A stretch of DNA of 64,000 nucleotides from Ostreococcus lucimarinus (taxonomy: Eukaryota), in assembly GCA_000092065.1 (NCBI GenBank), contig CP000586.1, one strand, 5' to 3'. The notes under the pieces are model-generated. The model was not told where the DNA came from. It did not search any database and was given only the letters and a program-made list of their open reading frames with translations. Shown piece after piece: positions 11,364-63,826 of this stretch. Position 1 is the first letter of the stretch; each line of letters begins with the position of its first letter. Made by a program: the position numbers and the translations under genes.

Positions 11364-12638
11364 ATGTCCCGCGCGCGCGGCGTCTGCGCCTTGGTCCTCA
11401 TCGACGACGGCGCCGCGACGACGCGCGACGCGGACGTGCCCGAGGAAATCATCCTCCAGCGCCTGCGCGCGTCGAGCGAGGACGACGACGGCGCGAGCGA
11501 CGACGACGGCGACGACGACGACGGGGTGCCGGGAATCCTCTCCCCCCCGTCCGCGCGCGACGTCGTCGTCATCGGACGCCAAAAGGGCGTCGTCGACCAC
11601 GCGATGGACTGCGCGAGCATTCCTCTGCTGCTCAGTCGCAAACACGCCGCGATGACGTGCGACGGCGCGGCGCATTACGTGCGAGATTTAGCGACGACGA
11701 ACGGGACGTTCGTGAACGGGTCGAGGATCGACGCCAAGGTGGACGTCGCGCTGAAAGACGGGGACGTCGTCGCGTTCGGAGGGCCGCGGTACGTGGCGCG
11801 GGATAGCGGTCGGTTGGCGAACCCGTTTCGGTATCGGTACGTGCGGTTGGAGCGCCCGGGGGTCGACGCGAGGAGCAAACGGCTGCGAGCGAGCCAAGAG
11901 AACGACGCGGCGAGAGAGGCGTTCGGGTCGCAGGGGGCGCAGTTGAGCCAGGTGTATCAGGCGGTGCAGGCGAGTCAGACGAGCGAGAGTTATGAGGAGT
12001 TGGATGATATGCTGAAAGCGCGGTTGAGGTCGATGTTCGATGGAGAGGTGGACTTCGCGCAGGCGTGCGCCAAACGGTACTTTGGAGTGGCGACGCCGAC
12101 GGCGTCGCCGAGTAAGTCTACGGGTAAGCGTAAGAGCGTGGGTCAAGCGACTCGAAGTGCGCCGAGTTCACAAGATCCTGATGCGGACGATGGGCTGCGA
12201 GATAAGCTCTCCGAGCTCGTTCTCGAACGCTTGCGAGACAGACCGGCGTGGGTGGAATCTGAACTCAAGTGCGCGATATGCCGCGAATGGATGACACTTC
12301 CCCACGCCTTGATCACTTGTGGACACCTCTTCTGCCTCGAATGCATCGACAATTCGTTTTGTCACGCCTACACGTGCCCGTGCTGCCGTTCGCGTCCGAA
12401 CGCGCCGCGTGAGCTCCTCTTCACGCCGTCGGCGCTCGCCGACAGACTCCTCGACAAATACGTCATACCAACCCTCACCACCAAGGAACTCCTCGACCGT
12501 AAGGCGAAGGAACAGAACGCCGTTCAAGCTCGCAAGAAACGAGTGAAACGCGCCGCTGAGGTCTCCATGCGCGTCGGCACTCTCTCCACGGTCTCCGTGC
12601 AAGAGACGCAGTCGGCGACGCCGCGAAGCGACGCGTGA
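11364..12638 (+). CDS. FHA + RING-finger E3 ubiquitin ligase (RNF8/CHFR-like)
   Basis: N-terminal FHA (VVVIGRQKG..HAAMTCDG..LATTNGTFVNGSRI). C-terminal C3HC4 RING (CAICREWMTLPHALITCGHLFCLECI..CPCC). Confidence 0.75.
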   Translation: MSRARGVCALVLIDDGAATTRDADVPEEIILQRLRASSEDDDGASDDDGDDDDGVPGILSPPSARDVVVIGRQKGVVDHAMDCASIPLLLSRKHAAMTCDGAAHYVRDLATTNGTFVNGSRIDAKVDVALKDGDVVAFGGPRYVARDSGRLANPFRYRYVRLERPGVDARSKRLRASQENDAAREAFGSQGAQLSQVYQAVQASQTSESYEELDDMLKARLRSMFDGEVDFAQACAKRYFGVATPTASPSKSTGKRKSVGQATRSAPSSQDPDADDGLRDKLSELVLERLRDRPAWVESELKCAICREWMTLPHALITCGHLFCLECIDNSFCHAYTCPCCRSRPNAPRELLFTPSALADRLLDKYVIPTLTTKELLDRKAKEQNAVQARKKRVKRAAEVSMRVGTLSTVSVQETQSATPRSDA

Positions 12639-28718: not shown

Positions 28719-31700
28719 CTATGCGTCGCTCACCTTGACCGGCAAAAGTCGCCCGACGACGAGCGAGCCGTCGCCGCATCGTTCAGACACAAACATGGAA
28801 TTTTCTGCGTCGCTCCCTTCGGGGGTTTCAAACTTCAAGAGATGATGCGTGCCCGCGAAGTCGGCCCAAAGCGCATTTGGTATCACGTTTCCATCGCTTG
28901 CCGTCACTAACGCCCATTTACCCTCGCCCCAAGGAGTCGCCAATTTCCCAGCCTCGAGGAACTTCATCCCCGGCGTGCCGGCCCAGGACCACTCGCGCTC
29001 TCGCTCGTTCGAAATTTTGGACGCGAGCTCGTGTGATTCAATCGCACTTTTCGTCGGCGCTGACGTCGGTACAGCACAGAGCGCGATCGACTCTTCGCCC
29101 GAGGTTTCAACTCCGGTACCCGCCGCCCACTTCATGAAAGGAACTCGTGACTTCTGTACCTCGCTCGACTCGCCGCTCTTCAGCGCTTCGTAATACGCGT
29201 ACGTATCTCGCATTCGTTCCACATCGCGAACGTGGTAGCTGAAATCAACCGTGATTGGCACATGTTTTGCCATAGCTTGGTCTTTGCGCATGAACAAGAA
29301 GACTGTCTTTGAATTGGCAAAACACAGATAATTGAGCGTTCGCCGGAGGATGCCGACGGCGACGACGTCGCCGTACGATGGGAAGAAGACCGCCGCGTTG
29401 AACACATCTTGCTCTTGCGCCACCGAAACGTCGCCCTTCATGGCGGTCAAACGAGTGGCCATTCGTTCTGCGAAAGCGATAGATTCTTGGGTCGGGGATA
29501 GTCTGAAAAATCCAGCATCTGAGCTCACCACTCGACCGCCGTGCAAGAATCGACTCCAATCCATGGTAGGATCGTCGACGACGTGGTCGTATCCGTACGC
29601 AGAAGCATCGTCCCAACCATCGCTCGCGGACTCCAAATCAGAATCTCTGTAAAAGAATTTCGAAGGGTCATCAAGCAAGACGACTCGCGGATCGACGAAG
29701 ACGACTCCGTGACCGTCTCGAAGAACGGCGTGAATGGCGTACCATTTGAGAGCAGCTTTCGAGAGCGGAGTCTTTTGCGACTTGCGGATCACAGTGGCGA
29801 GTCCGGCATCCCTCGCCGCTTTCGCGATGCTCTCATCATCTGTGACGACCATAGCTCGCTTTATCAATCTATTCTTCTCGATGCCGTGCTCTAGGAACAA
29901 TCCAAACACTTCGGAGTCTTTGGCGTCCGCGACGACGATCATGGCATCGCCGTGCTCATCGAAAGTCAACTTGCTAGAAAGCACATCGCAGATTTCCTTC
30001 ACAGTTTTCCTCAACTTTGAATCACTCCGGCACACACGCTCACTATCGCTGATGACGTGCAATTTTCGATCGAGTTTGTCCACTTTTCCATCCCACGCCG
30101 TCATAGGTTCGCACGTCTTTGCGCCCGCGCGCCCTTTCGTCCACGTCTTGCTTCCGATGAATCCATCATTAATGCTATGCAAGTGACCAGACTCCAGTTG
30201 AATAATAGACTTCAAGCCCTTATCGCAGCCAGTGATGCAGTCGAGCGACGACAACGGTGCGTCCTTGGTGTAATACGCGTGAACGAGCTTGATTTTGTTG
30301 TCCTTGTCCGTGTGATAGTTCGCGTGCATCGCCACCGGGCGATGATTCTCTCGCTGTAAAGGCTTCGAGTGACGAATGATTCGAAACATGACCTTGCTGT
30401 TCATGAAGCAAAACGGATCCATGACTCGCACTGTCGCCCCTGACGTCATGTGCGCGTCGCGACTCGCGAACCAGAGCTCAAGATTGTACCCGCTCTGGTC
30501 CCACAACTCTTCCGTTGCCAAGCGATGCGCCATGATTTTCATCAACCGCAAACTTGCTTCAGTGGCGCTCACGTACCACATGCCGCTATTGAGCGCGGCA
30601 ACGCGAAATGATCCAGCGCGCCGCCGAGCCTCACCGAACGAAACATCGTCGATAGGCTGTAAGAATCCATTGGCTGAATCATTATCGAAGCCATCACTCA
30701 TGCTTTCGATGTCGCTGTCGCGGTACAAGTAATCGAATGGGTTCTGCTGATACGTGACGTCTGTGTCGGTAAGCAGCACAGAACATCCTACGGCGACGAA
30801 CTCTTGAATCAAAGCAAACTTCTTCGCGCTCACTTTGTGATTACCCATCACGGGATCTTCGTGAAAGTAATAGGGCACGCCCAGCTCATCCAAACGCTTT
30901 GTCAGCGGCTCGTCGAGCGCGATGACGAGAAAGTTTGGAACTTTCAACGCGATGAGCATTTCCAAGAATGGCGTCAAACCAGGCGCTTGCGAGTTCGCCA
31001 CCGCGGCTAGTACTTCTCTGTTTTTCGCCACTCGTCGCAAAACTTCGCAAAGCGCCTCGCGTCCGTCGCAGTTCTGAGGCCACTCTTCAGAGTCGCGCGG
31101 AACGATGAAATCTAACGAGCGCGCGGAACCCCATATCCGTCTATTAATTCGCTTCGGTTCACACCTGTTCGGTCTTGAGTCATCCACGACGAACGCATCC
31201 GTTCTGCGCCCATTGATCGCTCGAAGCGCGAACGGTTCCATGAACGATGGCGCCGCCGCGACGTAGGAATCTTCGCTCGATGCGGCGGACGCGTTTGACG
31301 TTCGCTCTTCATTTCGTCGCTCGACGTGCGACGTGACCGTATCTGAAATGACCCGTGATGATGGCGATGGCGGTGGTGGCGACGGTAAAGGCGACGGCGG
31401 TGGCGGCGGTGGCGAGTTTTCCACCGGCGGTGGCGGCGGTGGCGGCGGTGGCGAGGTTTCCACCGGCGGGTCATCGTCCACGTGGACTTCGCGAAGTCGC
31501 GGCGATTCCTCCACCGCCGCGTTCGCCTCCTCCGCCGCTCGATCGCGTCTCTCGATAATCTCCTTCACCTCCGCGTCCACTCGAACATCCAACTCGCGTT
31601 TCACCATTTCGTCCCTCGTTCGTGCGTCGCTCGCCGCGCCCGCCATCGGTTCCCCCCTCAAAAGCGCCCCCCTCGTCGGATTCAATCGATACAAATCCAC

Positions 31701-31787
31701 CCGCAACAGCGCGACGAGCGCGCCCAACGCGATCCCTTGCGTCAACACCCGAACCGCGCGACCCCGTCGCGTCGTCCAAAACGCCAT
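28719..31787 (-). CDS. type II membrane glycosyltransferase with two nucleotide-diphospho-sugar transferase (GT77-like) domains and a Pro-rich (SPPPP/extensin-like) stem
   Basis: Signal anchor (MAFWTTRRGRAVRVLTQGIALGALVALL). Stem PPPPPPPPPVENSPPPPPPSPLPSPPPPSPSS. Two repeats resemble the PF03407/GT77 fold (..VLLTDTDVTYQQNPFDYLYRDSDIESMSDGFD.. and ..VVFVDPRVVLLDDPSKFFYRDSDLESASDGWD..). The ORF-track start is a GTG; the first ATG is at 31787. Confidence 0.65.
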   Translation of the reverse strand: MAFWTTRRGRAVRVLTQGIALGALVALLRVDLYRLNPTRGALLRGEPMAGAASDARTRDEMVKRELDVRVDAEVKEIIERRDRAAEEANAAVEESPRLREVHVDDDPPVETSPPPPPPPPPVENSPPPPPPSPLPSPPPPSPSSRVISDTVTSHVERRNEERTSNASAASSEDSYVAAAPSFMEPFALRAINGRRTDAFVVDDSRPNRCEPKRINRRIWGSARSLDFIVPRDSEEWPQNCDGREALCEVLRRVAKNREVLAAVANSQAPGLTPFLEMLIALKVPNFLVIALDEPLTKRLDELGVPYYFHEDPVMGNHKVSAKKFALIQEFVAVGCSVLLTDTDVTYQQNPFDYLYRDSDIESMSDGFDNDSANGFLQPIDDVSFGEARRRAGSFRVAALNSGMWYVSATEASLRLMKIMAHRLATEELWDQSGYNLELWFASRDAHMTSGATVRVMDPFCFMNSKVMFRIIRHSKPLQRENHRPVAMHANYHTDKDNKIKLVHAYYTKDAPLSSLDCITGCDKGLKSIIQLESGHLHSINDGFIGSKTWTKGRAGAKTCEPMTAWDGKVDKLDRKLHVISDSERVCRSDSKLRKTVKEICDVLSSKLTFDEHGDAMIVVADAKDSEVFGLFLEHGIEKNRLIKRAMVVTDDESIAKAARDAGLATVIRKSQKTPLSKAALKWYAIHAVLRDGHGVVFVDPRVVLLDDPSKFFYRDSDLESASDGWDDASAYGYDHVVDDPTMDWSRFLHGGRVVSSDAGFFRLSPTQESIAFAERMATRLTAMKGDVSVAQEQDVFNAAVFFPSYGDVVAVGILRRTLNYLCFANSKTVFLFMRKDQAMAKHVPITVDFSYHVRDVERMRDTYAYYEALKSGESSEVQKSRVPFMKWAAGTGVETSGEESIALCAVPTSAPTKSAIESHELASKISNEREREWSWAGTPGMKFLEAGKLATPWGEGKWALVTASDGNVIPNALWADFAGTHHLLKFETPEGSDAENSMFVSERCGDGSLVVGRLLPVKVSDA

Positions 31788-32070
31788 CTTCGAATCCCTC
31801 GCGCTCACTTTTTCGATCCCAGCTCTCGCGCGATCCTCGTCCCGAGTTCAAACGCCAAGTCCACCGCCGCGTCGCTCGCGCGCAGCGTCCCCGCGCACAG
31901 CGTTCGCGCCGTCTCGTCCCGTATCCTCTCCGTCCTCACCTCGATCACCCCGTGCTTCGCACCGATCGACACGCACACCGCCGTCGCACCCAGCGTGTAC
32001 AGCGTCGAGCTCAGCGCGCCGCGCATCAACCGCGATCGTTTCCTCGTTCGTTATCGTCGCGTCGACGCTG

Positions 32071-32090
32071 AATCGAATCGAATCGAATCG
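32071..32090. repeat. (AATCG)4 microsatellite
   Basis: aatcgaatcgaatcgaatcg in the divergent intergenic region. Confidence 0.9.
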
Positions 32091-32228
32091 AGCTTTTCGC
32101 GCGCGCTCGCGTCGCGCGCGCTCGCGTCGCGCCGTCGTCGCGCGCGTTCGCGACTCGAGTCGCGGTCGCGCGCGTCGGTCTCGCTCTTCGCGCGCGCGCG
32201 TCGCGGTGTCGCGCCACTGCTCGACGCG

Positions 32229-32981
32229 ATGCCGACGACGACGACGACGACGCGCGCGCGCGCGACGACGGCGCCGCGCGCGCGCGCGAAGACGATCGGC
32301 CGCGCGACGACGCGCGATGGGACGACGCGGTGCGGCGCGACGCGCGCGCGCGACGCGCGCGACGACGCGGTGTCGCGAAGACGCGCGCTGGCGCTCGCGT
32401 GCGGCGCGGTCGTCGCGCGGCCGATCGTCGCGCGCGACGACGCGGCGCGCGCGATGTTCAACGCGGACCTGGATAAACCCATCGAGGACGGGCCGCGCGC
32501 GATCGCGACGACGCTCGCGGCGAAGGCGGCGCTCGCGGACGTGCTGGCGCAGAACGACTTGTTTAGGGACACGTGCGAGGCGCCGGTGTTCGCGTGCGAT
32601 TTGAGCCAGTTGAACGTGAAGACGTCGAGCCGGGTGAGCGGACCGCTGCGACGGTCGTTGCCGACGCTGAGCGAGATGTACGGGGCGGACCCGTACGCGG
32701 TGGATTCGGTGCTGCAAAACGTTTCGACGCTCGAGGCAATTTTTAAAGCCAACAACGCGAGAGTGAAGGTGGATTTCAAGGGAGGGCCGGAGATGATTGG
32801 GTTGATTAATCAAGGGTTGGAGGAGTTGTATAACGATTTGCCCGCGGATGCGCTCGCGGCGGGACGGGCGGTTTTCGAGGCGTGCGATTTGGCGGTCGAC
32901 GCCACGGCGGAGGGAGATTTGGAGTGCCGCATCGCTCGCGCGGTGTCGCAGAACAAGCGTCCGAGCGGTGGGCAGTCTTAG
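32229..32981 (+). CDS. hypothetical chloroplast/thylakoid-lumen-type protein with twin-arginine-like signal
   Basis: MPTTTTTTRARATTAPRA.. transit-like region. Then RRRALALACGAVVARPIVA (RR motif + hydrophobic + AxA). Then a soluble domain of unknown family. Confidence 0.4.
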   Translation: MPTTTTTTRARATTAPRARAKTIGRATTRDGTTRCGATRARDARDDAVSRRRALALACGAVVARPIVARDDAARAMFNADLDKPIEDGPRAIATTLAAKAALADVLAQNDLFRDTCEAPVFACDLSQLNVKTSSRVSGPLRRSLPTLSEMYGADPYAVDSVLQNVSTLEAIFKANNARVKVDFKGGPEMIGLINQGLEELYNDLPADALAAGRAVFEACDLAVDATAEGDLECRIARAVSQNKRPSGGQS

Positions 32982-42153: not shown

Positions 42154-45100
42154 TTAAATATTTGCGTCGGGCGCAGACGCAGCCGCGCGGGCTCGCCGCG
42201 CGCGGAATCGACGCTGAAGTTTTAAGACGACGAGCATGACGCTCATGGAAATTGGCTTGCCGTCGAGATCAAACAATTCGTTCTCGTCGCCTTCTTCTGC
42301 GATTTCCATCTCGCGAATGGACGCAAAAGAGTCCCCGCGAAGTTCATCGGCGGCTTGTTCTTTGCGAGAAAGTTCTCTGACGAGAGTCGCTCTTCGACGG
42401 ACTTTGTTTCGAAGTCTCAAGAGAGAAGCCCGTTTGGCGTTTCTCCGATCCTCCTCGAGTTCGCGGCGAATTTCGAGCGGGAGGTAGTTGAGATCCACAC
42501 CCATAGCCTTGGCCGTAAAAGCCTGCAAGAGCTCGGTGTAATGAAGAAACCTCGACCCTCCTTGTAGATTGAGCGATCGAACGTGGTTGAGCATGCCCAA
42601 GTCAGTGACGCGCTTGCCCTTCAAACCCAATGGTTTTGGCGTGGCGAGAATGATGGCCTTTACGTCGATCGCGCTGACGAAACCGGTGAGATCTGGGTCG
42701 AACTTTTTCCAAACTCTGCGGAAAGCCTTGACGTCTTCAGGAGTCACGTTCTCATTCTCAGCTTCCTTTCTACTCATCGAATAGTTATCGAGCACGACAG
42801 CGATGAGTAAGTTGAGAATAATGAACGAAGAGAAAGCGACAAAGCTGACAAAGTAAACTGGAGCGACGGCGGTGCCGCAACACGTCCCGATGGCGCAATC
42901 GAAAGAAGCGTCGCAGTTTTTCTTGTTCATGCAATCATTCATGATCTCTTGCCACCCCTCGCCGGTCAACATCCGCAAAAGCGTGGAGAGGGAATTTCCA
43001 AAAGTTTTGAAGTTTGCGTGCCTATTGAGCGCTTCGCCATACGCGAGACGCCCGAAGACTTGTGTGCCTAATATGGCGTATATAAAAAACAGCAGCGCCA
43101 ACAACAGAGATATGTTGCCGAGCGCAGGAATTGTCATCACCAGCGTCTGGAACAACGTGTTCAATGATTTCCACTTTTTCACCATACGGAAAACTCTGCA
43201 GATGCGCAGAGCGCGGAACGCGCTAGATCCCGTTCCCGACTGCAAAATTGCACCCAAGATGGACGTTACGACGATGATAAAGTCGAACACATTCCAACCG
43301 GATGAAAAGTAACGTCGCGGGTACAGCGCGCCAATTTTCATCATCGCTTCAACTGCAAACGCAGCCGTGAAGATGTAGTTCAACACATCCAATGCAAACT
43401 TCTTTGAGGAGCTGTCGTGATCCGTCTCCGTCATGAGCACCACGGTGTTAATGAAGATGATAACCATGATGCTCGCATCAAATCTTGTGTCGTTGATCAA
43501 TTGGAAGAGCTTTGCGCGCCACTTTTGATGAGGCGGTCTTCTGAAAAATGATTGTCGAGCGGTGAAGTTCCTGTTGCGCTGCTGAGCAACCCACCTTGCC
43601 TGTGACTCGCTCATAATGGTGCGCGTCAGCGACGTCGTCGATATCTTCAAAAAGTTGTCGATGACGATACCGATGCACATATTGAACAAGAAGAAGTTCG
43701 ACAGAACGATAAAAATGAGGAAATACCACGTCGCGACTGGAGTACGATCTCGCACGGGCGCCACATCCGTGCCCACGGCGTCAGCTGCGTTGAACATAGT
43801 CACTGTCCACCCTTCGCCAGACGTCGTCTCAAACAACGTGAGCATTGCTCGTGGGAAAGAGTCAAAGTTGCTGTCAGCACTCTCCCAATCTCGAGTGACA
43901 TAAACCGCAGATGTGTAGCTGCCAGTGCATGCAGATTCGGTCGTTTTGGTGTAGTCGTTGCACGAAGACGTTATGACATCCCAAGTCCGCACACTCGTGC
44001 CGTTTGACCAAGAATCGACGCACGCCGATTTAGTGAGAATCGTGGGATCGGAGCAACTTTTAAACTTACCCATGAACAACGACATTCCTGCGATAGCAAA
44101 TATGATCCACACAATCAACGATACCAGAAGCACGTACACGAGACTCGGAAGCGATGCAATGAGCGCGTTGATTACCACTTTTAACCCTTGTACTCGCCCG
44201 AGAAGTCGAAGCGGTCGCAAAACGCGCAAAGTACGTAACGCACGAACCCATTTAAGATCCGCGCTGGATCCGAGACCCATACCGAGCAATCCGAAAAACA
44301 CGATAGTGCCATCGAGAACGTTCCACGGGTTCTTCAAGTACGAGTACTTATCGGCGTTGAACATGCCTAACGCGATCCACTTCATCAACAACTCCACCAC
44401 AAATGCAGAAGTGAAACAGTAATCAAGAATTTCTGCTCTCTCCTCAAAGTTTGGATTGTCCATATTCTCTGGCGTCTCCCAACACATGGTTATACTCGAG
44501 GCAATGATCAACATAAGAATGAACCAGTCAAATCGCCTGTCGTCCGCGATCGCGAAGCACGCTTTACGGACTGGGTGCGATGGCTTGAACAATCCAAAAA
44601 AGCTGCTTTGTTCAAACTTAGTGAGCGGAACTTTACTAAGCGCCCCTGGCTGCTTCTTCTGCATGTCCTTCGGACTCATAATGACGCTGGTTGTCTCAGC
44701 GCTACTTTCTTCCTCAATCATCTTTCTGGCTCGCTGCAATCTCAAATTTTCAACTTTAGCCGCTGCTTTTCTCTTCTCTCTCTTCAGCAATTCGTGGGCA
44801 AAATGTGCAAATCTCGTCGCAGTTTGGGATGGCTCATTATTTGCGCTATCATTCGACTCACGACTACGGACACTGTCCGATTTAGTCATTCGCATCCCAG
44901 CAAACACGCCAAAGATACTTTGTTTCTTCGCAGCCCTACTCTCTTGCAGTTGCTCTTGCAGGACTTCTTTGCGATTGTCAAAGTTGCTCAGCAAGATGGC
45001 GATGAGCGAGTTGAGAATGATAAAGTCGCCCAGAATGAGGACGACCACGAAATACAGAAGAGCGACTTTCGCGGTGGTGAACATGGTGTCATACATCACT

Positions 45101-47601
45101 AATGGCCAATCCTCGTGCGTGATGACTTGCACGACAGTAATAATAGCGTTGTTGAAGGTGTCAAAGTTCGACCGCGGCTTTGGGTCAATCTTACAGTAAT
45201 TGCCGCCAAAAAGTTGCATCCCGACGAGCGCAAAAATCAAAACAAATAGACACAAAATCGCTAGAAAACTCGATAAATCGACCAGAGTCTTCCAAATTGT
45301 TTTAAGCGTGCTCTGTAGAGACTGCCACGTTCGCATCAACTTGAGGATTCGGAAAACTCGGAGCGCGCGAAGGACGGTGAATTTTGACTTGCCTTCACCT
45401 CCATTCAAGCCGAGTTCAATACAAGACACGAGCACAATCCCCGCATCCAACCAATTCATGCGATCACGCACGTACTCAGGTATACCAAGCGCTACGACTT
45501 TAATCAATAATTCAAACATGAAAATCGCAGTAAACGCCAGATTCGCGTTTTCCAGCGCCTCTGAGTAACTGTTAGACATGCCGTCGTATTCCATCGCGAG
45601 CACGAGTGTGTTCAACAAAATACTGAAGTTGATGACCATGAAGAAAAAATCACCATCCACGAACTTCCGCGCACGTGGTTGTACGAAGTTCTTTATTCTG
45701 ACGAGTTGCGTTTTGATCCACTCGAGAGTTTGACTGCGTTTGTGGCGCACGACGGACGCGCTCATTGCTTCTCCTAACCCGTCATTCGTGGCACTTTCTG
45801 AGCGTGATAGCGCCTGGATAGCTCTTTCGAAGGTGGAGAAGCTCCCACTCGAGACTCTTTGCAACTCATCCATAATATTCGCGTCGTAAACCATGGTGAT
45901 GATGGCGAGTGCCAAGTTCAATATCACGAACGATCCAAAAAATATCACGGGCAGGAACCACATCACGACCGCAGGCGATACTGAATCTATGAGGTCTAAC
46001 ATCACGGGCGACCAATACTCGAGGGTTATCGTCTGGAAGATCACGAGCCAAGACCACCAGACGCTATCGAAACTCGCGTATCCATAGTTTGGATTTTCGT
46101 GATCTAAACACTCTTGGCCGCTGGGGCACTGCCACGCGGCTTGGGCGGTGGTTCCACATGCTTGATCTTCGTTCTTTTTCAGCAAAACTGCGTCACCAGA
46201 AGCGCGTTTGATGCATCGTACGTATTCTTGCGCCGTGTAACTCTCGCACGGCACGCTTGGCGGAAGTACATCGAAGCACCGTGTTCTCATCTTTCCGGCA
46301 AAGAACTGCACGCCAATGATACCGAAAATGCAGAAGAATAGCAAAAAGAATACAATCACGTTCGCAAGAAGTGGTAGAGACTTCAACATTGTCTCGATCA
46401 GCAATCGAAGCGATGGGAACATGCTAATCGTTCGCAGCGGACGCAGAATTCGCACTGTTCTTAAGGTGGACACGTTTGACCCCATATCGCCTGGCAGGAG
46501 GGCGACGACGGACACGATGACAATGCCAAAGTCCATCACGTTCCACGAGTCGCGTAAATACGCCCCCGAGTTTTTTGTATTCAATTTACCCACCACACCG
46601 AACGCTATCATCTTCAGCAACGCCTCGAGGGTGAATAAAATAGTGAACGTGAGTTCGCTCCGCTCCGCCGCGTCGTTCCTCGCCCCTCGCGTGGCAAACT
46701 GCCCGCACCCTCTACCCTCCAAGCGCTCGGGTTCGCTGAGGCACAGCAAAATCGTATTCGCAGCGATAATCAGCAGTACGATCCAATCAAACTCGTGTCT
46801 CTCGACGAGCTGAATGCAAAACTTGCGAATCGGGTTCTCCGCCCCGAACACCCCGAACGACTTTTCAGCGTAAATCTTCCCACTCACTCCCACGACTAAG
46901 CTATCCTCGCCCTCGATCGACGCATTTCCCGACGCTGACTCTTGCCTCGCCGCACTCACGTTCGCACTTCGTTCTTTCCCACTCTTCGTGTGTTCGCCCA
47001 AGCGATGATAAATGTCCACCAATTGTTCGCCTCGTTCGTCTCGCTCGCCGTCGTCGTCGCTTGAGTGGGAATCTCTCGCCCCGTCCCGATCGATGCCGTA
47101 ATACGATCCATCATCACCATCACCCTCATCGTCGGAATCGTCGCTCGAGCACGGCGCCGGTCCCGCGCGCGTCGCCGCTCCCGCGCGCCGCGTTTCGTCC
47201 TCCGTCTCGCGCTCGCCGCTCGAATTCCCATCGCTCGAATCCGCGCTCCCGTGTCGCATCACCAGCTCCGCGAACGCGACGGACGACAGCGACGCCCCCC
47301 CGCTCGCGCGTCTTCGTCCCTCGCGCGCGTTTTGCGACGCATCGCGCGCGACGAACGCACCGATCGTCCCCGCGCGTCGTGCCTCCGAATTCGCGTTCGC
47401 GTCGTCGTCGTCTTCATCGCGCGCCCTCGCGCCGCCGCGCGCGTCGCGCCGCCGCGTCGGCGCGTCGCCGGAGTCCGACTCCACGCCCCACCGGCTCGGC
47501 GCCATCGGCATCGCGCGCGGCGCGCGCGCGCGTCGTCGTCTGTCGGCCGGGGCGGCCGGTCTCGTGTCGCAGCGGTAAAAAACACGGACCACGTCGCGCA
47601 T
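42154..47601 (-). CDS. four-domain voltage-gated Ca2+ channel alpha subunit (Cav-like, EEEE selectivity filter)
   Basis: Four homologous 6-TM domains with arginine-ladder S4 segments (RTVRILRPLRTI; LRALRVFRILKLMR; VRALRTLRVLRPLRLL; RALRICRVFRMVKK). Pore loops TLEYW / THEDW / TSGEGW / TGEGW give Glu in all four domains. There is a C-terminal IQ-like basic motif. The ORF-track start is a GTG; the first ATG is at 47601 and the true start is uncertain. Confidence 0.85.
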   Translation of the reverse strand: MRDVVRVFYRCDTRPAAPADRRRRARAPRAMPMAPSRWGVESDSGDAPTRRRDARGGARARDEDDDDANANSEARRAGTIGAFVARDASQNAREGRRRASGGASLSSVAFAELVMRHGSADSSDGNSSGERETEDETRRAGAATRAGPAPCSSDDSDDEGDGDDGSYYGIDRDGARDSHSSDDDGERDERGEQLVDIYHRLGEHTKSGKERSANVSAARQESASGNASIEGEDSLVVGVSGKIYAEKSFGVFGAENPIRKFCIQLVERHEFDWIVLLIIAANTILLCLSEPERLEGRGCGQFATRGARNDAAERSELTFTILFTLEALLKMIAFGVVGKLNTKNSGAYLRDSWNVMDFGIVIVSVVALLPGDMGSNVSTLRTVRILRPLRTISMFPSLRLLIETMLKSLPLLANVIVFFLLFFCIFGIIGVQFFAGKMRTRCFDVLPPSVPCESYTAQEYVRCIKRASGDAVLLKKNEDQACGTTAQAAWQCPSGQECLDHENPNYGYASFDSVWWSWLVIFQTITLEYWSPVMLDLIDSVSPAVVMWFLPVIFFGSFVILNLALAIITMVYDANIMDELQRVSSGSFSTFERAIQALSRSESATNDGLGEAMSASVVRHKRSQTLEWIKTQLVRIKNFVQPRARKFVDGDFFFMVINFSILLNTLVLAMEYDGMSNSYSEALENANLAFTAIFMFELLIKVVALGIPEYVRDRMNWLDAGIVLVSCIELGLNGGEGKSKFTVLRALRVFRILKLMRTWQSLQSTLKTIWKTLVDLSSFLAILCLFVLIFALVGMQLFGGNYCKIDPKPRSNFDTFNNAIITVVQVITHEDWPLVMYDTMFTTAKVALLYFVVVLILGDFIILNSLIAILLSNFDNRKEVLQEQLQESRAAKKQSIFGVFAGMRMTKSDSVRSRESNDSANNEPSQTATRFAHFAHELLKREKRKAAAKVENLRLQRARKMIEEESSAETTSVIMSPKDMQKKQPGALSKVPLTKFEQSSFFGLFKPSHPVRKACFAIADDRRFDWFILMLIIASSITMCWETPENMDNPNFEERAEILDYCFTSAFVVELLMKWIALGMFNADKYSYLKNPWNVLDGTIVFFGLLGMGLGSSADLKWVRALRTLRVLRPLRLLGRVQGLKVVINALIASLPSLVYVLLVSLIVWIIFAIAGMSLFMGKFKSCSDPTILTKSACVDSWSNGTSVRTWDVITSSCNDYTKTTESACTGSYTSAVYVTRDWESADSNFDSFPRAMLTLFETTSGEGWTVTMFNAADAVGTDVAPVRDRTPVATWYFLIFIVLSNFFLFNMCIGIVIDNFLKISTTSLTRTIMSESQARWVAQQRNRNFTARQSFFRRPPHQKWRAKLFQLINDTRFDASIMVIIFINTVVLMTETDHDSSSKKFALDVLNYIFTAAFAVEAMMKIGALYPRRYFSSGWNVFDFIIVVTSILGAILQSGTGSSAFRALRICRVFRMVKKWKSLNTLFQTLVMTIPALGNISLLLALLFFIYAILGTQVFGRLAYGEALNRHANFKTFGNSLSTLLRMLTGEGWQEIMNDCMNKKNCDASFDCAIGTCCGTAVAPVYFVSFVAFSSFIILNLLIAVVLDNYSMSRKEAENENVTPEDVKAFRRVWKKFDPDLTGFVSAIDVKAIILATPKPLGLKGKRVTDLGMLNHVRSLNLQGGSRFLHYTELLQAFTAKAMGVDLNYLPLEIRRELEEDRRNAKRASLLRLRNKVRRRATLVRELSRKEQAADELRGDSFASIREMEIAEEGDENELFDLDGKPISMSVMLVVLKLQRRFRARRARAAASAPDANI

Positions 47602-47809
47602 CGGATCGCGTCGCGACGCGCGTCGCGGCGTCGCGCGCTCGCGCACTCGCGCGCGCGCGAACGCGCGGAACGACGCGGGAGAGGCGTTTACACCGCGCGA
47701 AGACGCGCGAGACGCGCGAAAGCGGCGCGCGAAACGGTGAAGACGAACGAGTCGAACGAATCTCCGCGCGGGTGGTTGAAAACGCCGCGACGAGGACGAG
47801 GCGCGCGCG

Positions 47810-48737: not shown

Positions 48738-51700
48738 TTATATCGCGACGGATCGAACTTGTTCGAGCTTCTTTAGAATTTCGCCCGGCGTACGATCCAT
48801 TTCTTCCGCGATTCTCCGTTGAACGTCAGCCGGTAAAGCGCCGAACTGCTCGCACAAGTCACCGTCGATGACATTTTTGACCGGCGCGTAGTACGACCGG
48901 AATGCCATGTGGTCGCGCCCGACTATGGATGGCGCTTCCTGGCGCATGTGCATTTCTAAATGAGTGAAGAACTCGATCTCCGATCGAGAGCTGAACGGTA
49001 ACAAACATCCGATACCGCCCATGAAAGTGCCGTACATGATGATCTCGATCCCTCCCGGTTGTAGTGCGCCCTTCGTGAGCGCGCACACCGTCTCCCCGAT
49101 GTATGTTTGCGCAGAGGTTTCAGACTTGTTCGGCGCACCGTTCAATACACCTTGCGAATAAATGTTCTTACCGCCTGTGGGGTCATCGTCCATGTCCTCA
49201 CTGACATCCTTCGGTAGGCGATTGACGAAAATATTCCCAAACTTATCCGCACCGGCGAGTGTATCGTAATCTAAAGGCAGCGTCGCCGTGATGTATCGCG
49301 GCTTCGTGTCGTCGGCAAAGATGTATATACTACCCTCATCCGCCTTGTACTTGACGTAGTGAATAGACTCCTGCACGTCACCGACGTATATTCTATCTCC
49401 CGCCGCGTGCAGAGTGGTGATGAAGTTTGGAAAGTTCCTGTTCTCAACCTTGCGCAAGAGTTTCTTCTTACCGTAGTCGTAAATGCGCAACGAATTGTTC
49501 ACGCCCGCCAGCAGGTGACCTTTGTATCCACACAACGCCCCGACCGGACCATCCGTCGGGGTGGAGTGCACCAAATTGAGCGTCCTACCATCGTTACCGT
49601 ATCTGTACAAATGGATGAAACCACCATCGCAGTTGCGCGGCGCAAACGTGAGGTTCACCGCCGTACCGACGGCAAGGAGTAACTCATTCGGGCCTGTCAG
49701 GAAGACGTGGCACAAACTGAGCGCGGCTTCACTCTTGTGTAGCTCCAGCACGAACGTCGATTTCGCCTCCTTAGGATCGACGATTCGTACGCACGCCGCC
49801 CACGTTCCAGGCGAGCTCTTCGGCGCGCCAAACTGTTCGACGGGTAGCATCTTTGCTTCCTCCTCGTCTTCGTCGTTCGTTTCGGGCGCTTCGTCTGCGG
49901 GCGTTGCTTCGGGACCTTCGCGTTCGCCGACTGGAACCGTGCACTGGTCACTTTCGATCAGCGCAACCATCTTCGTATCAGGATTGGCGCTCATCGCGCG
50001 CGGAGTGTAACGGAGCTTGACCGTGGTCTGGTTGAAGTTTTCGCCCAAACGCTCGATGCTCGCGATGCGTAACGTCTGGTTTGAAATCGCCACGACGCCT
50101 TCGGGGCATTGCTCGCTGTTGAACGAACACACCTCTTCCAGCGGGACGTACGAAATTGGTGCGAGCACGAACGTTCCCTTTTCAGAGTATCCCAACCAAG
50201 GTCGAGATGACAACGCGACGAGAGCCGGAGCGCCACGAACGCTTGTACGAACAAGCTTCGGCGCACGAGCGCCTAAAAAGCGCATGCGCATATCACTCAG
50301 TTGTCCAGAAACTTGATCAATCGTCGCACGTATCAAAACGCCATTCGCCATGCCCACATTGAGCAACAAACCACCTTGAGTGGACTCCGTACCCGCGGTT
50401 TGGAGGACCAACAAGCTGGACGGCGCCGAGCCCTTGAGCGCTTGCACGGCTAACGTTTGCAAGCAGTCATCCGGGTTGAGGCTCATGACGCGCACGGTGC
50501 CGTCGTACGAACCCATGGCGAGGAATCTATTTCTCAGCGCACCCTCAGGAACCGGACCGATATCCAAACACGCAATGTCGCCGCTAGTCTCCAGCTTTTC
50601 AACTTCAATGAGTTGACCGGCCGAATCTAACTCAAAGTAAATCACTTCGCCGCCGGTGAGCGCGATGACAACTTGCTTGCTGTTGCACGTGCACTTTGAG
50701 ATTTGCTTGCGTCCAGGAGTGCGCCACTCATTGATGCGCTTATCCGCCTTGATGTGGCGCAAACCGCCCGGATGAATCTGAAGTAAAGATTCATCGCTCA
50801 TGAGACACGCCTGAAGCGTCGTCGTAGTTCCTAAAATCCCGCTGTCGTTCACTTCACTGACGGTGTCTCCGATGGACAATACCAGCGTTGCGTTCAAGAA
50901 CGAGACGATGATATACGAATCATACTCTTCCGACGAGCTCTTCTTCACCGTGAAGATGGCGTTCGGCTGGCCCGGAAGTGGGCTCATCGCCAATTCGTTC
51001 ATGGCGATGCCTTGCCGCAAAATGCGAAGCGATGAACGAGCGCCAGTTCCGCAAAGCGTGTACAATTGTGGCATTTCCTCTTCCGTCAAGTTGTGTGCCT
51101 GCATGTCTAGCACAGGACACAAACTATCTATAGTATCGATCGTGTATAAGTTGGTCAAAGGTCGCGGGTCGAAGAATACGGGCTCGTAGCCTTCCTCCGT
51201 TTCCATGAGCGATGCCGAGCTGCTTTCAACCGCGTCATCGTCGCCAATGCCGGCAAACTGATACAGCGCGTGATTTCCGAATTCACTCGCCGCGAACAAG
51301 AAACCAGTCTTCAACACGCACAAGCTTACACACGGGGGAATAGTGTCAAAATACTTCACTTTGACTTCACTCACTGTTTCCCCGGAGTAGTCGATGGTGA
51401 GTTTGTAAATGTCCCCGTACTCTGACTGCGCCAAAAAGAAGAAAGAATTCTTCGATCTGTGGCTCGCGGAGGACACAATCAACACCCCTCGATCAGCCGC
51501 CAAAGAATTTCGACGCGGGATCACCGCCCGAACTTCGTCGTGGTTCTGATGTCTGTAAATGACAAAGTTTTCGCAGCACACCAAGACACCACCCGGACCG
51601 TCGCTTCCGCCTGGCACGGGAATCAAATGGTTTGCGCCGTTATCGATCGGCTCGCTCCACTTGCGTACGACGTGGTTCAAACCTAAATCGAGTTCGTAGT

Positions 51701-52328
51701 ACGTCAAATGCTTCTGCGCCTCCGCCACGGCTTCGCCACTCGGGTCTGCGTCCGCATCGCCGTAGTCCAACTCGATCGCCGCGAAAATCGGATTGTCCAA
51801 TCCGCAATCTAACGCGCACATGTGAAACACGATCGTGTGCGACTTATTCGCCTCAAGCGGTGATGAAATAGTCAAGTTTGCCTCATTATCTCTGTTCATC
51901 ACGTACACCAGCTTATTCTTCTCCACCGCGCCCAGACAAATGGCTCGCCCCTTTGGGTCCGCGCACAAAAACTGCCCCGGCACGATCCTTCGGCATCCCG
52001 TCTTCCCATACGTCTCCTGATGCACCTTCACGAACGCATTCTTTTCCTTATCAAACTGCAGCACCACCACCCGACCGCTGTCGCTTCCGAGGACGAGATA
52101 ATCTCGATTCGCTCCCGCCAGGCGCAGCGTCGCGATCGACCGCGCGATCCCGAACGCCTCCACGCTCGTCACGCTCTGCACCCGTCCGCTCTCATCCGGT
52201 CGCAGCAGCTCGACGACCTTATTTCGCAGCACCACGATCTCCTGCGCCTTGCTCGCGCTGAAGTTTCCGTACACCGCGGCGTTGATTCCGCTCGACTTCT
52301 GCAGCGTGAGATTGTACAAGTGCACCAT
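48738..52328 (-). CDS. SF3B3: splicing factor 3B subunit 3 (SF3B3/SAP130)
   Basis: Colinear similarity to SF3B3 from residue 1 (MVHLYNLTLQKSSGINAAVYGNFS..EIVVLRNKVVELLRPD..GCRRIVPGQFLCADPKGRA). The length (1196 aa) fits. Confidence 0.9.
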   Translation of the reverse strand: MVHLYNLTLQKSSGINAAVYGNFSASKAQEIVVLRNKVVELLRPDESGRVQSVTSVEAFGIARSIATLRLAGANRDYLVLGSDSGRVVVLQFDKEKNAFVKVHQETYGKTGCRRIVPGQFLCADPKGRAICLGAVEKNKLVYVMNRDNEANLTISSPLEANKSHTIVFHMCALDCGLDNPIFAAIELDYGDADADPSGEAVAEAQKHLTYYELDLGLNHVVRKWSEPIDNGANHLIPVPGGSDGPGGVLVCCENFVIYRHQNHDEVRAVIPRRNSLAADRGVLIVSSASHRSKNSFFFLAQSEYGDIYKLTIDYSGETVSEVKVKYFDTIPPCVSLCVLKTGFLFAASEFGNHALYQFAGIGDDDAVESSSASLMETEEGYEPVFFDPRPLTNLYTIDTIDSLCPVLDMQAHNLTEEEMPQLYTLCGTGARSSLRILRQGIAMNELAMSPLPGQPNAIFTVKKSSSEEYDSYIIVSFLNATLVLSIGDTVSEVNDSGILGTTTTLQACLMSDESLLQIHPGGLRHIKADKRINEWRTPGRKQISKCTCNSKQVVIALTGGEVIYFELDSAGQLIEVEKLETSGDIACLDIGPVPEGALRNRFLAMGSYDGTVRVMSLNPDDCLQTLAVQALKGSAPSSLLVLQTAGTESTQGGLLLNVGMANGVLIRATIDQVSGQLSDMRMRFLGARAPKLVRTSVRGAPALVALSSRPWLGYSEKGTFVLAPISYVPLEEVCSFNSEQCPEGVVAISNQTLRIASIERLGENFNQTTVKLRYTPRAMSANPDTKMVALIESDQCTVPVGEREGPEATPADEAPETNDEDEEEAKMLPVEQFGAPKSSPGTWAACVRIVDPKEAKSTFVLELHKSEAALSLCHVFLTGPNELLLAVGTAVNLTFAPRNCDGGFIHLYRYGNDGRTLNLVHSTPTDGPVGALCGYKGHLLAGVNNSLRIYDYGKKKLLRKVENRNFPNFITTLHAAGDRIYVGDVQESIHYVKYKADEGSIYIFADDTKPRYITATLPLDYDTLAGADKFGNIFVNRLPKDVSEDMDDDPTGGKNIYSQGVLNGAPNKSETSAQTYIGETVCALTKGALQPGGIEIIMYGTFMGGIGCLLPFSSRSEIEFFTHLEMHMRQEAPSIVGRDHMAFRSYYAPVKNVIDGDLCEQFGALPADVQRRIAEEMDRTPGEILKKLEQVRSVAI

Positions 52329-62602: not shown

Positions 62603-63826
62603 TCAATTCTCTCGCTCGCAAGTGCAATGCGGGCAGTTGTGCAGCTTTTCGTGAATGTAGCAATCGCAAGCGAAGCAAAACACGTTAGAACACTGCTCAC
62701 ACTTGGATGCTGGATCTGTTTGCTTGATAAGCGCGAGGCATGCTTTACACTCCAACACCTCCTTCGCTGAAGCCTCGTCGCGCGTGTACTCCTTGAACGG
62801 GGCGACGGGAAACAGGTGATGGTACGATCGCGCGAGATGTGGTGACGACACGAGCGTCAAACGACACACCGCACACTGCGAAGGAAGTTCATCGATTCTC
62901 CCAGAGCACCTAGGACACACGTATTCACCCCCCGTTCCGACCACGAGCGCGTCCTTACTCAAGTGCTTCTTTTGCGGAAATCCCATTTGTACCAAGCTCG
63001 ACTTCGTCGCGTCTTCGGGGAGCGGCGGCGGCGGTGCGTGCGCCATGATTAAATCATCCAAATGGTCGGCGTTTAAGCTCACCCCGTACGTTCCTCCAGT
63101 CTCCTCTGTCAGCCGTCGACTGACGTGAAGCTCCGCCGCCACGGCGACGACGCTCACGCGCACCTTGGCCGCCTTCGTCGCCGCGATCTCTGTCCACACA
63201 TTTCCAGGATCACACGTCGACAACGAACTCACGATATAGAGCACCTCACGACTTCCGTACGACGGAATCGATTTCAACGACGTCCTCGCGACGTTTAGCG
63301 TATTTTGCAAACTAAAATCCCCGCTCGCGTCCAGCGCGTTTCTCAGCGCCGCCGCGTGCGCCTCCGGACTCCCGCTCAGCTCCGTCAACCGTTCGGCCAC
63401 CCCATTCCTCGCGACGATGATCCCCAACTGCGATAGCGGATTCTGATTGAAATATTCCCGTATGAACGACGTCGCGCACTGTCCGACCACGCTCAACCGG
63501 TTCGGTCGAAAGTCTTCCTCGTTCGCCGCCCGCGACAGATCGACCACCACGTACGTGAACCGAATCATTCCCTTCGCCGCTCCCGCGCTCGTCGCGAGCG
63601 CCGCCATCTTCGCGCGCCGTTCGCGCGCCTTGGCCGTCTGCGCCTCGCTCGTGACGCGCAGGCGTCCCGTCACCGGGTCTTCCTCCAAGTCTTCCCACGC
63701 CCGTTCGCTCTGGTACTTCTTCTCCCACGCGCGCAGCGCGCGCTGGGCGTCCTCCGCGTCGACGTCGTCGTCGTCATCGTCTCCGTTCGCGCCCTCGGCG
63801 CCGTACGCGGCTTCAACCGACGTCAT
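62603..63826 (-). CDS. GTF2H2: general transcription factor IIH subunit p44 (SSL1/GTF2H2)
   Basis: vWA-like domain (FTYVVVDLSRAANEEDFRPNRLSVVGQ..FIREYFNQNPLSQLGIIV..LSGSP). C-terminal C4 and RING-like zinc fingers (YVCPRCSGRIDELPSQCAVCRLTLVSSPHLARSYHHLFPV..CFACDCYIHEKLHNCPHC). Colinear with human p44. Confidence 0.85.
   Translation of the reverse strand: MTSVEAAYGAEGANGDDDDDDVDAEDAQRALRAWEKKYQSERAWEDLEEDPVTGRLRVTSEAQTAKARERRAKMAALATSAGAAKGMIRFTYVVVDLSRAANEEDFRPNRLSVVGQCATSFIREYFNQNPLSQLGIIVARNGVAERLTELSGSPEAHAAALRNALDASGDFSLQNTLNVARTSLKSIPSYGSREVLYIVSSLSTCDPGNVWTEIAATKAAKVRVSVVAVAAELHVSRRLTEETGGTYGVSLNADHLDDLIMAHAPPPPLPEDATKSSLVQMGFPQKKHLSKDALVVGTGGEYVCPRCSGRIDELPSQCAVCRLTLVSSPHLARSYHHLFPVAPFKEYTRDEASAKEVLECKACLALIKQTDPASKCEQCSNVFCFACDCYIHEKLHNCPHCTCEREN

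What the first reader, a model, noticed from the sequence alone, without database searches (positions are those of the whole stretch)
28719..31787. Double-domain GT77-like glycosyltransferase carrying an extensin-like poly-proline stem
The type II signal anchor is followed by PPPPPPPPPVENSPPPPPPSPLPSPPPPSPSS, then two tandem nucleotide-diphospho-sugar transferase repeats. These repeats resemble the plant GT77 family (RRA/XEG113/RGXT), which includes extensin arabinosyltransferases. A stem that itself looks like a hydroxyproline-glycosylation substrate is intriguing: the enzyme could be its own substrate, or the stem could act as a Golgi spacer.
Basis: partly seen in the sequence, partly recalled or inferred. 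Interest (0 to 1): 0.5.

Follow-up and report, generated by a model that had tools for sequence, protein, structure and literature searches.

The report
Tandem RRA-type glycosyltransferase with proline stem
This is a real gene of the tiny marine green alga Ostreococcus lucimarinus. It encodes a Golgi-type membrane enzyme related to the plant enzymes that add arabinose to hydroxyproline-rich proteins. It has a second, degenerate copy of the catalytic domain and an undescribed small barrel domain that other enzymes of the same pathway also carry, while the striking poly-proline stem is a recent, species-specific spacer.

Summary
Window 28719-31787 (-) is one uninterrupted 1022-aa ORF. It encodes an N-terminal signal-anchor helix, a disordered stem holding a 38-aa tract with 24 prolines, and two PF03407 (GT77) domains. 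Taken separately, the domains score 3.6e-48 and 1.4e-16.

- **Domain 1.** It is about 40% identical over its whole length to plant RRA2/RRA3, the extensin Hyp-Araf beta-1,2-arabinofuranosyltransferases of GT77 clade A. Its DxD (DTD) and HxNYH motifs are invariant across 38 orthologues.
- **Domain 2.** It is an old RRA-like duplicate, 34% identical to maize RRA3. It is conserved, but its DxD has decayed to D-P-x. I therefore read it as an accessory or acceptor-binding pseudo-GT rather than a second catalyst.
The last ~90 aa form an eight-stranded beta-barrel with no Pfam model. A profile of it finds 305 cluster representatives. Among 58 long carriers, 17 are HPAT (GT95), 16 are GT77 and 2 match GH127 beta-L-arabinofuranosidase models. 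This links the barrel to hydroxyproline arabinosylation.
- **Poly-proline stem.** It is translated sequence; an in-frame 30-nt indel segregates in wild populations. It is absent from all other orthologues except one distant PPPP, so it is a lineage-specific spacer. It may be glycosylated incidentally, but it is not a conserved self-substrate.

The gene family is already counted in GT77 surveys. The architecture is not described in the papers I searched.

The parts
28719..31787 (-). Complete CDS, 1022 aa plus stop, with no interruption
   Evidence: An identical 1022-aa protein is found on 6 marine metagenome contigs.
31692..31748 (-). Signal-anchor / transmembrane helix (aa 14-32), preceded by RRGRAVR
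   Evidence: Hydropathy 1.70 over 19 aa. AF2 helix 8-34. The position is conserved in orthologues (consensus).
31509..31625 (-). Long stem helix (aa 55-93), charged
   Evidence: AF2 secondary structure, helix 55-93 with pLDDT 67-80.
31227..31508 (-). Disordered luminal stem (aa 94-187)
   Evidence: pLDDT below 50 for residues 94-187. Mean identity to orthologues is 9%.
31356..31469 (-). Poly-proline / Ser-Pro(n) tract (aa 107-144), built from a 39-nt tandem duplication
   Evidence: An in-frame 10-aa deletion allele, P0053, exists. The tract is absent from 36 of 37 orthologues.
30258..31067 (-). GT77 domain 1 (aa 241-510; Pfam match aa 282-501), RRA-type and catalytically intact
   Evidence: PF03407 E 3.6e-48. 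40% identity to maize RRA3, E 3e-60. Mean 67% identity among orthologues.
30759..30767 (-). DxD motif of domain 1 (D341-T342-D343)
   Evidence: Invariant in 38 sequences. It aligns with D-I/V-D of plant RRAs.
29178..29957 (-). GT77 domain 2 (aa 611-870; Pfam match aa 678-855), a divergent RRA-like duplicate
   Evidence: PF03407 E 1.4e-16, covering profile positions 52-201 only. 34% identity to maize RRA3 over 189 aa, E 5e-38. GT-A-like alternating strands and helices in the AF2 model. Mean 48% identity among orthologues.
29685..29693 (-). Degenerate DxD position of domain 2 (D699-P700-R701)
   Evidence: The third position is R, S, G, A, E, N, K, Q, P or D across orthologues.
28740..28997 (-). 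C-terminal eight-stranded beta-barrel module (aa 931-1016), motif WxWxG...TPWGxGxW...RCxDG

Best explanation
The gene encodes the Mamiellophyceae form of the RRA-type (GT77 clade A) glycosyltransferase. It is a type II Golgi membrane protein whose luminal part is held away from the membrane by a helix and a disordered stem.

The first GT-A domain is the catalyst. By homology it most likely extends Hyp-linked beta-L-arabinofuranose (Hyp-Araf1 to Hyp-Araf2) on proline/hydroxyproline-rich secretory proteins.

The second GT-A domain is an ancient duplicate of the same domain. It keeps the RRA-like acceptor-side loops but has lost the canonical DxD metal/donor site. It most likely acts as a non-catalytic accessory or acceptor-binding domain, packed against domain 1.

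The C-terminal beta-barrel is a separate module shared with HPAT (GT95) and GH127 proteins. It most likely recognises the common substrate, a Hyp-arabinoside or a polyproline-II peptide.

The poly-proline tract is a recent repeat expansion in the O. lucimarinus lineage. It serves as a rigid spacer and may be hydroxylated and arabinosylated incidentally.

Shown here: the ORF, the domains, the motifs, the conservation pattern and the domain co-occurrence. Inferred: Golgi location, donor and acceptor identity, the non-catalytic status of domain 2, and the binding role of the barrel.
For: - **Gene and domains.** Open 1022-aa frame. Both repeats pass PF03407.
- **Domain 1.** About 40% identity over 97% coverage to proteins named RRA2/RRA3 across many plants. 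DTD, RDSD-ESMSDG and HANYH(T)DK are invariant in 38 orthologues.
- **Domain 2.** 34% identical to maize RRA3. It keeps the plant-like loop AYGYDHVVDDPxMxWSRFxHGGR. Its DxD is D-P-x, and the first His of HxNYH is replaced.
- **Fold.** The full-length AF2 model has pLDDT 79.5 and pTM 0.79, with two GT-A-like domains and a barrel. Foldseek matches retaining GT-A enzymes and two-GT-A proteins: LH3, LARGE1, K4CP and PmHS2.
- **Stem.** It is not conserved, and it shows in-frame length polymorphism.
- **Literature.** GT77 clades A and C occur in all sampled green algae (PMC3797821). O. lucimarinus CCE9901 has 8 GT77, 3 GT95 and 2 GT96 genes (PMC13213038). Hyp-Araf3 was detected in O. tauri, as an unpublished observation cited in PMC8012813.
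Against: - No enzymatic, localisation or transcript data exist for this protein. All contigs carrying it are metagenomic.
- GT75 UDP-arabinose mutase was reported missing from prasinophytes (PMC3797821). This leaves the supply of UDP-Araf, and hence the donor, in doubt.
- GT77 also contains xylosyl- and galactosyltransferases, so donor specificity cannot be read from family membership.
- I built no phylogeny with clade B, C or D references. Clade A assignment rests on best named hits.
- Domain 2 is under clear purifying selection, with many invariant acidic residues (D715, D717, D723, D726, D734, D738, D739). A non-canonical active site is therefore not excluded. Distant orthologues still have D-P-D.
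- Structural matches of the barrel are to a very common fold. The Foldseek E-value is only 0.14.
Confidence: 0.55

Rival explanations
1. Bifunctional enzyme. Both GT77 domains are active and add two successive (or two different) sugars to the same Hyp-linked glycan, in the manner of LARGE1 or the K4CP and PmHS2 polymerases.
For: - Foldseek's top matches include two-GT-A bifunctional enzymes.
- Domain 2 is conserved, at 48% mean identity, with invariant acidic clusters and a YDHVVDD loop.
- Distant orthologues P0033-P0036, P0039 and P0040 retain D-P-D.
Against: - The third DxD position is unconstrained in the Ostreococcus, Micromonas-like and Bathycoccus-like sequences: R, S, G, A, E, N, K and Q all occur.
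- The first His of HxNYH is lost.
- The N-terminal nucleotide-binding third no longer matches PF03407 or plant RRA.
- Separate XEG113-type genes for the next step are reported in Ostreococcus (PMC3797821, PMC7773692).
Confidence: 0.22
2. Same architecture, different chemistry. The enzyme uses another donor (for example UDP-Xyl or UDP-Gal, as in other GT77 members) or another acceptor, such as a scale, mucilage or glycolipid glycan, and is not a Hyp-arabinoside arabinosyltransferase.
For: - GT75 mutase is reported absent from prasinophytes, and Ulvskov et al. themselves doubt RRA/XEG113 function there (PMC3797821).
- Ostreococcus is described as wall-less (PMC3797821).
- Identity to plant RRA is only about 40%.
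Against: - The best named homologues are consistently RRA2/RRA3.
- The barrel module is shared specifically with HPAT and GH127 beta-L-arabinofuranosidase proteins.
- Hyp-Araf3 is reported in O. tauri (PMC8012813).
- GT95 and GT96 genes are present in the species (PMC13213038).
Confidence: 0.2
3. The poly-proline stem is a selected, functional self-substrate. The enzyme, with its pathway partners, glycosylates its own stem, and this regulates stability, rigidity or Golgi retention.
For: - There are three Ser-Pro(n) motifs of the extensin type in a luminal, disordered segment.
- The complete hydroxyproline arabinosylation gene set is reported in the species (PMC13213038).
- The tract is kept in frame in wild populations.
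Against: - It is absent from 36 of 37 orthologues, including those 60-66% identical overall.
- It arose by a 39-nt duplication and is length-polymorphic.
- It has no Tyr cross-link motifs.
- Stems of type II Golgi enzymes are generally compositionally free spacers (general knowledge).
Confidence: 0.12
4. The proline tract is not protein: it is an unrecognised intron or an assembly artefact.
For: GT...AG pairs in frame can be drawn around it. No transcript sequence was available.
Against: - The frame stays open.
- The candidate splice sites are not consensus-like.
- Identical sequence occurs on 6 independent metagenome contigs.
- Natural variants differ by a 30-nt in-frame deletion and by missense changes inside the tract.
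- Orthologue stems have similar length without it.
Confidence: 0.03

Closest known systems
Plant RRA1-3 (Reduced Residual Arabinose; GT77 clade A; Hyp-Araf1 to Hyp-Araf2 beta-1,2-arabinofuranosyltransferases)
   Same: - Type II anchor followed by a stem.
- A PF03407 catalytic domain about 40% identical over its full length.
- The same DxD, RDSD-ES-SDG and HxNYHxDK motifs.
   Different: Plant RRAs are about 430 aa with a single domain. The named plant RRAs retrieved here show no match to the barrel. This protein is 1022 aa, with a second degenerate GT77 domain and a C-terminal barrel.
XEG113 (GT77 clade C) and RGXT1-4 (GT77 clade B)
   Same: The same Pfam/CAZy family and the same GT-A fold.
   Different: They did not appear among the named hits of either repeat, apart from one RRA-length plant protein labelled MGP4 by its depositor. 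No direct comparison or tree was possible because no reference sequences were available here.
Two-GT-A enzymes: LARGE1, K4CP chondroitin polymerase, PmHS2; and lysyl hydroxylase LH3 (catalytic plus accessory GT-A)
   Same: Tandem GT-A domains in one chain. These are the top Foldseek matches to the full-length model. LH3 is a precedent for one active and one accessory GT-A domain.
   Different: - They belong to unrelated families, with 8-11% identity.
- The bifunctional polymerases have two intact DxD sites, whereas here the second is degenerate.
- Only LARGE1 and LH3 are eukaryotic secretory-pathway enzymes. K4CP and PmHS2 are bacterial (general knowledge).
HPAT (GT95, PF23452) and GH127 beta-L-arabinofuranosidase proteins of protists that carry the same C-terminal barrel
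   Same: A homologous C-terminal module with the WxWxG...TPWGxGxWG...RCxDG motif. By family annotation they act on the same Hyp-beta-L-Araf glycan.
   Different: Their catalytic domains are unrelated to GT77. Carriers include haptophyte (Chrysochromulina) and diplonemid (Namystynia) sequences.
C-terminal beta-barrel domain of GH43 endo-arabinanases (AbnA 5ho0/5ho9, Abn2 2x8t, YxiA 3lv4)
   Different: Identity is 12-16% and the Foldseek E-value is 0.14. Avidins, lipocalins and designed barrels score almost as well, so this is a fold resemblance and not demonstrated homology.
Extensins / hydroxyproline-rich glycoproteins
   Same: Ser-Pro(4-9) motifs in a luminal disordered segment.
   Different: There are only three motifs in 38 aa, no Tyr cross-linking motifs, and the tract sits inside an enzyme stem. 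It is not conserved in orthologues.

Membership tests
GT77 / PF03407 Nucleotid_trans | Significant match to the family model above the curated cut-off (22 bits) | tested here: met
   Repeat 1 scores 164.8 bits and repeat 2 scores 61.6 bits, each scanned alone.
GT77 / PF03407 Nucleotid_trans | GT-A fold | tested here: met
   The AF2 model has pTM 0.79. Foldseek matches GT-A enzymes (glycogenin, Gat1, GT6, LH3, LARGE1) with probability 1.00.
GT77 / PF03407 Nucleotid_trans | DxD metal/nucleotide-sugar motif, repeat 1 | tested here: met
   D341-T-D343 is invariant in 38 sequences and aligned to plant D-I/V-D.
GT77 / PF03407 Nucleotid_trans | DxD metal/nucleotide-sugar motif, repeat 2 | tested here: not met
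   The motif is D699-P-R701 here, and the third position varies freely among orthologues.
GT77 / PF03407 Nucleotid_trans | Type II membrane topology with a luminal catalytic domain | tested here: met
   N-terminal hydrophobic helix with a positive N-flank. There are 13 Cys in the predicted luminal part, several of them invariant. Localisation itself was not tested.
RRA clade (GT77-A) Hyp-Araf beta-1,2-arabinofuranosyltransferase | Closest characterised or named relatives are RRA1-3 | tested here: met
   The named plant hits are almost all RRA2 or RRA3, at 38-42% identity and 97% coverage. BLASTP to maize RRA3 gives E 3e-60. No formal tree with clades B, C and D was built.
RRA clade (GT77-A) Hyp-Araf beta-1,2-arabinofuranosyltransferase | Transfers Araf from UDP-beta-L-Araf to Hyp-Araf1 | not testable with these tools
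   This needs an enzyme assay or a mutant glycan analysis.
RRA clade (GT77-A) Hyp-Araf beta-1,2-arabinofuranosyltransferase | Organism supplies UDP-Araf (GT75 mutase) and makes Hyp-arabinosides | not tested
   Literature only, and it conflicts. GT75 is reported absent from prasinophytes (PMC3797821), but Hyp-Araf3 is reported in O. tauri (PMC8012813), and GT95 and GT96 genes are present (PMC13213038).
Bifunctional tandem GT-A glycosyltransferases (LARGE/K4CP type) | Two GT-A domains, each with an intact donor-binding motif | tested here: not met
   The second domain lacks DxD, and its N-terminal third has diverged from the family profile.
Extensin / HRGP (for the stem) | Repeated Ser-Pro(3-5) motifs | tested here: met
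   The stem contains SPPPPPPPPP, SPPPPPP and SPPPPS.
Extensin / HRGP (for the stem) | Tyr-based cross-linking motifs and an extended repetitive array | tested here: not met
   There is no YxY motif and only one Tyr in the stem, and the tract is only 38 aa long.
Extensin / HRGP (for the stem) | Pro hydroxylation and Hyp O-arabinosylation of the tract | not testable with these tools
   This needs glycoproteomics.

The most novel reading that the evidence does not exclude
The C-terminal barrel is a previously undescribed substrate-recognition module for Hyp-beta-L-arabinofuranosides or polyproline-II peptides. It is shared by 'writers' (HPAT/GT95, RRA-type GT77) and an 'eraser' (GH127) of hydroxyproline arabinosylation across green algae, haptophytes and euglenozoans. 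In the Mamiellophyceae enzyme it works with a pseudo-glycosyltransferase domain to hold contiguous-Hyp substrates, so that a single catalytic domain acts processively. This would imply that a substrate-targeting system for Hyp-arabinosylation is far older and more widespread than land-plant extensins.
Probability: 0.3. Interest if true: 0.6.

Novelty: new variant of a known kind. Interest (0 to 1): 0.42.

Why it matters
Hydroxyproline O-arabinosylation is central to plant cell-wall extensins and peptide hormones. How its glycosyltransferases recognise their substrates is unknown, and no GT77 relative with a solved structure turned up in the PDB sequence search.

This 'wall-less' picoalga carries an RRA-type enzyme in an expanded form: catalyst, degenerate twin and a barrel. 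The barrel recurs on HPAT and GH127 proteins of distant protists. That gives a concrete, testable candidate for the substrate-binding element of the pathway. It also gives a compact, apparently intron-free gene for expression and structural work.

The poly-proline stem that drew attention is the least important part. It is a young, strain-variable spacer.

Tried and rejected
- **PDB sequence search.** The search with the whole protein returned only low-complexity proline matches.
- **GT77 gene lists.** The supplementary GT77 sheet of Ulvskov et al. 2013 was truncated in the held copy. I could not confirm which published gene name (for example OlRRA) corresponds to this locus.
- **Splice-site test.** GT-AG enumeration around the tract was uninformative. 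It gave 25 in-frame pairs, none resembling a consensus site.
- **Transcript evidence.** All six contigs carrying the exact protein are metagenomes.
- **Stand-alone genes.** I first considered that shorter hits (P0089-P0093, P0207, P0212-P0214, P0244) were stand-alone single-domain RRA genes or 'domain 2 + barrel' genes. That would have implied a gene fusion. Inspection showed that the ones I examined are truncated models of the same two-domain family. For example, P0207 starts at MHANYHTDK and P0093 runs into the interdomain linker. I therefore rejected this.
- **Domain 2 as XEG113-like.** I considered that domain 2 might be XEG113-like, making the protein an RRA+XEG113 fusion. It is in fact 34% identical to RRA3 and shares RRA-specific loops. 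Without an XEG113 reference this remains untested directly.
- **Other copies in the window.** An HMM search of all window ORFs found no other barrel or GT77 copy.
Full report

Yes. Window 28719-31808 (-) is one open frame. The first ATG at 31787 gives a 1022-aa product.

- *Anchor.* Residues 14-32 are hydrophobic, with mean Kyte-Doolittle 1.70 over 19 aa. They follow an Arg-rich N-terminus and are modelled as part of a helix spanning residues 8-34.
- *Proline tract.* Residues 107-144 read PPVETSPPPPPPPPPVENSPPPPPPSPLPSPPPPSPSS, with 24 Pro in 38 residues. Proline is 3.8% elsewhere in the protein, and the corrected binomial tail is about 4e-22. At DNA level the tract is a 39-nt unit present 1.9 times at 97% match.
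- *GT77 repeats.* PF03407 matches twice. Scanned separately, aa 241-587 score E 3.6e-48 over the whole profile. Residues 588-909 score E 1.4e-16 over profile positions 52-201. The two repeats are 28% identical to each other (E 2e-25).

**2. Where does it come from?**

Three neighbouring ORFs are identical to Ostreococcus lucimarinus CCE9901 proteins XP_001418451.1, XP_001418454.1 and XP_001418208.1. The window is therefore a chromosome segment of that picoalga.

The surrounding genes are ordinary eukaryotic housekeeping genes: zuotin/DnaJC2, aldehyde dehydrogenase, a DDB1/SF3B3-type protein, oxoprolinase and a four-repeat cation channel.

The exact 1022-aa protein occurs on six marine metagenome contigs, and its 90% cluster has 245 members. 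Automatic names attached to it ('TonB', 'FCF1') are artefacts of the proline-rich segment.

**3. Is the tract translated?**

No transcript was available. However:

- the frame is open and codon use is normal;
- environmental alleles differ inside the tract by a clean 10-aa (30-nt) deletion (P0053) and by N-to-T and S-to-P substitutions;
- orthologue stems are of comparable length without it.

The intron reading is very unlikely.

**4. What are the catalytic domains?**

*Repeat 1.* The best named relatives are plant RRA2/RRA3 proteins, at 38-42% identity and 97% coverage with E about 1e-52. Against maize RRA3 the figures are 40% identity and E 3e-60. These are the GT77 clade A enzymes that add the second beta-Araf to Hyp-Araf1 (PMC5371791, PMC8012813). 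Across 38 orthologues, D341-T-D343, RDSD-ESMSDG and H488-x-NYH-x-DK are invariant. They align with the same motifs in plant RRAs.

*Repeat 2.* It is also RRA-like: 34% identity to maize RRA3 over 189 aa, E 5e-38. It keeps the plant-type loop AYGYDHVVDDPxMxWSRFxHGGR better than repeat 1 does. But it has changed in three ways:

- its DxD is D-P-R here, and the third position is effectively free among orthologues;
- the first His of HxNYH is replaced;
- its N-terminal third no longer matches the profile or plant RRA.

It is nevertheless conserved. Mean identity is 48%, against 67% for repeat 1 and 9% for the stem.

The full-length AF2 model (pLDDT 79.5, pTM 0.79) shows two GT-A-like domains packed with a C-terminal beta domain. 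Foldseek finds retaining GT-A enzymes and, at the top, two-GT-A proteins: LH3, PmHS2, LARGE1 and K4CP.

I read repeat 2 as an accessory or pseudo-GT domain. LH3 is a precedent for this. An unorthodox second active site is kept as a rival.

Shorter homologues that looked like stand-alone versions are truncated gene models. The tandem form therefore appears to be the RRA-type gene of this algal group.

**5. The overlooked C-terminal module**

Residues 931-1016 have no Pfam match. They are conserved, with the motif WxWxG...TPWGxGxW...RCxDG. They fold confidently (pLDDT 91.6) into an eight-stranded barrel.

A profile search of 1.84 billion representatives gives 305 hits. Of 58 long carriers:

- 17 are HPAT (PF23452, GT95, the enzyme that adds the first Araf to Hyp);
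- 16 are GT77;
- 2 match GH127 beta-L-arabinofuranosidase models, one of them also matching the catalytic domain;
- one is GT8 and one is a methyltransferase.

The motif aligns across all of these. Carriers include haptophyte (Chrysochromulina) and diplonemid (Namystynia) proteins. The named plant RRAs retrieved here lack it.

The co-occurrence is the strongest independent support that this protein works in hydroxyproline arabinosylation. It also suggests that the barrel is a substrate-recognition module. I found no description of it in the papers searched.

**6. The stem**

Among 38 orthologues only this species has proline runs; one distant sequence has a single PPPP. The others have acidic, Ser- or Ala-rich stems of 85-150 aa.

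The tract has Ser-Pro(n) motifs but no Tyr cross-link motifs. The species is reported to encode GT95, GT96, GT77 and GT47 enzymes (PMC13213038), and Hyp-Araf3 was seen in O. tauri (PMC8012813). The luminal tract may well be hydroxylated and arabinosylated.

As a young, length-polymorphic, non-conserved expansion, it is best explained as a rigid spacer. It is not a conserved self-substrate.

**7. Caveats**

- Donor and acceptor are inferred by homology only.
- GT75 mutase is reported missing from prasinophytes, which the cataloguing authors themselves flag as a problem for RRA/XEG113 function there (PMC3797821).
- No clade-resolved phylogeny was built.
- Localisation is inferred.

**8. Novelty and verdict**

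GT77 genes of O. lucimarinus, including clade A members, are already tallied in surveys (PMC3797821, PMC13213038). The family assignment is therefore not new. In the literature I could search, three things appear undescribed:

- the tandem architecture with a degenerate second domain;
- the barrel module shared with HPAT and GH127;
- the species-specific poly-proline stem.

I rate it a new variant of a known kind, of moderate interest. The barrel module is a more promising lead than the stem that prompted the finding.

Noticed in passing
window 28740-28997 (-), aa 931-1016: The C-terminal eight-stranded beta-barrel has no Pfam model. Its motif WxWxG...TPWGxGxWG...RCxDG recurs at the C-terminus of HPAT (GT95), GT77 and GH127 proteins of green algae, haptophytes and a diplonemid. 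A profile finds 305 cluster representatives.
   Followed up: yes
window 31356-31469 (-); environmental variants P0053, P0055, P0051: The proline tract is polymorphic in wild populations. Variants include a 30-nt in-frame deletion (removing VENSPPPPPP), VENS to VETS, and SPSS to SPSP.
   Followed up: partly
window 31605-31787 (-): Several automatic gene calls for this locus start at Met48 or Met61, giving products of 975, 965 or 962 aa. One such call lies on an 817-kb contig. These calls drop the signal anchor. The anchor-containing start is supported by conservation in orthologues. Automatic names 'TonB' and 'FCF1' are spurious.
   Followed up: partly
whole window; e.g. 48741-52328 (-), 62606-63826 (-), 11364-12635 (+): These ORFs exactly match Ostreococcus lucimarinus CCE9901 proteins XP_001418451.1, XP_001418454.1 and XP_001418208.1. 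This identifies the source genome.
   Followed up: yes
window 42154-47646 (-): A 1830-aa ORF with four Ion_trans repeats, i.e. a four-domain voltage-gated cation channel type. It coincides with the only low-GC stretch of the window (GC 0.47-0.52 against about 0.60).
   Followed up: partly
P0244 (604 aa, fragment) and relatives, not in the window: This is a more divergent branch of the same tandem family. In it the second domain has lost even the first Asp (A-A-P in place of DxD), yet it keeps the AYGYNHVLDDP loop and the barrel.
   Followed up: no
window 31482-32981 (+) and 31848-32813 (-), upstream of the gene: These are long Arg/Ala-rich ORFs on both strands with no Pfam match. Metagenome gene callers place 73-aa and 230-250-aa genes here. 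The coding status is unclear.
   Followed up: no
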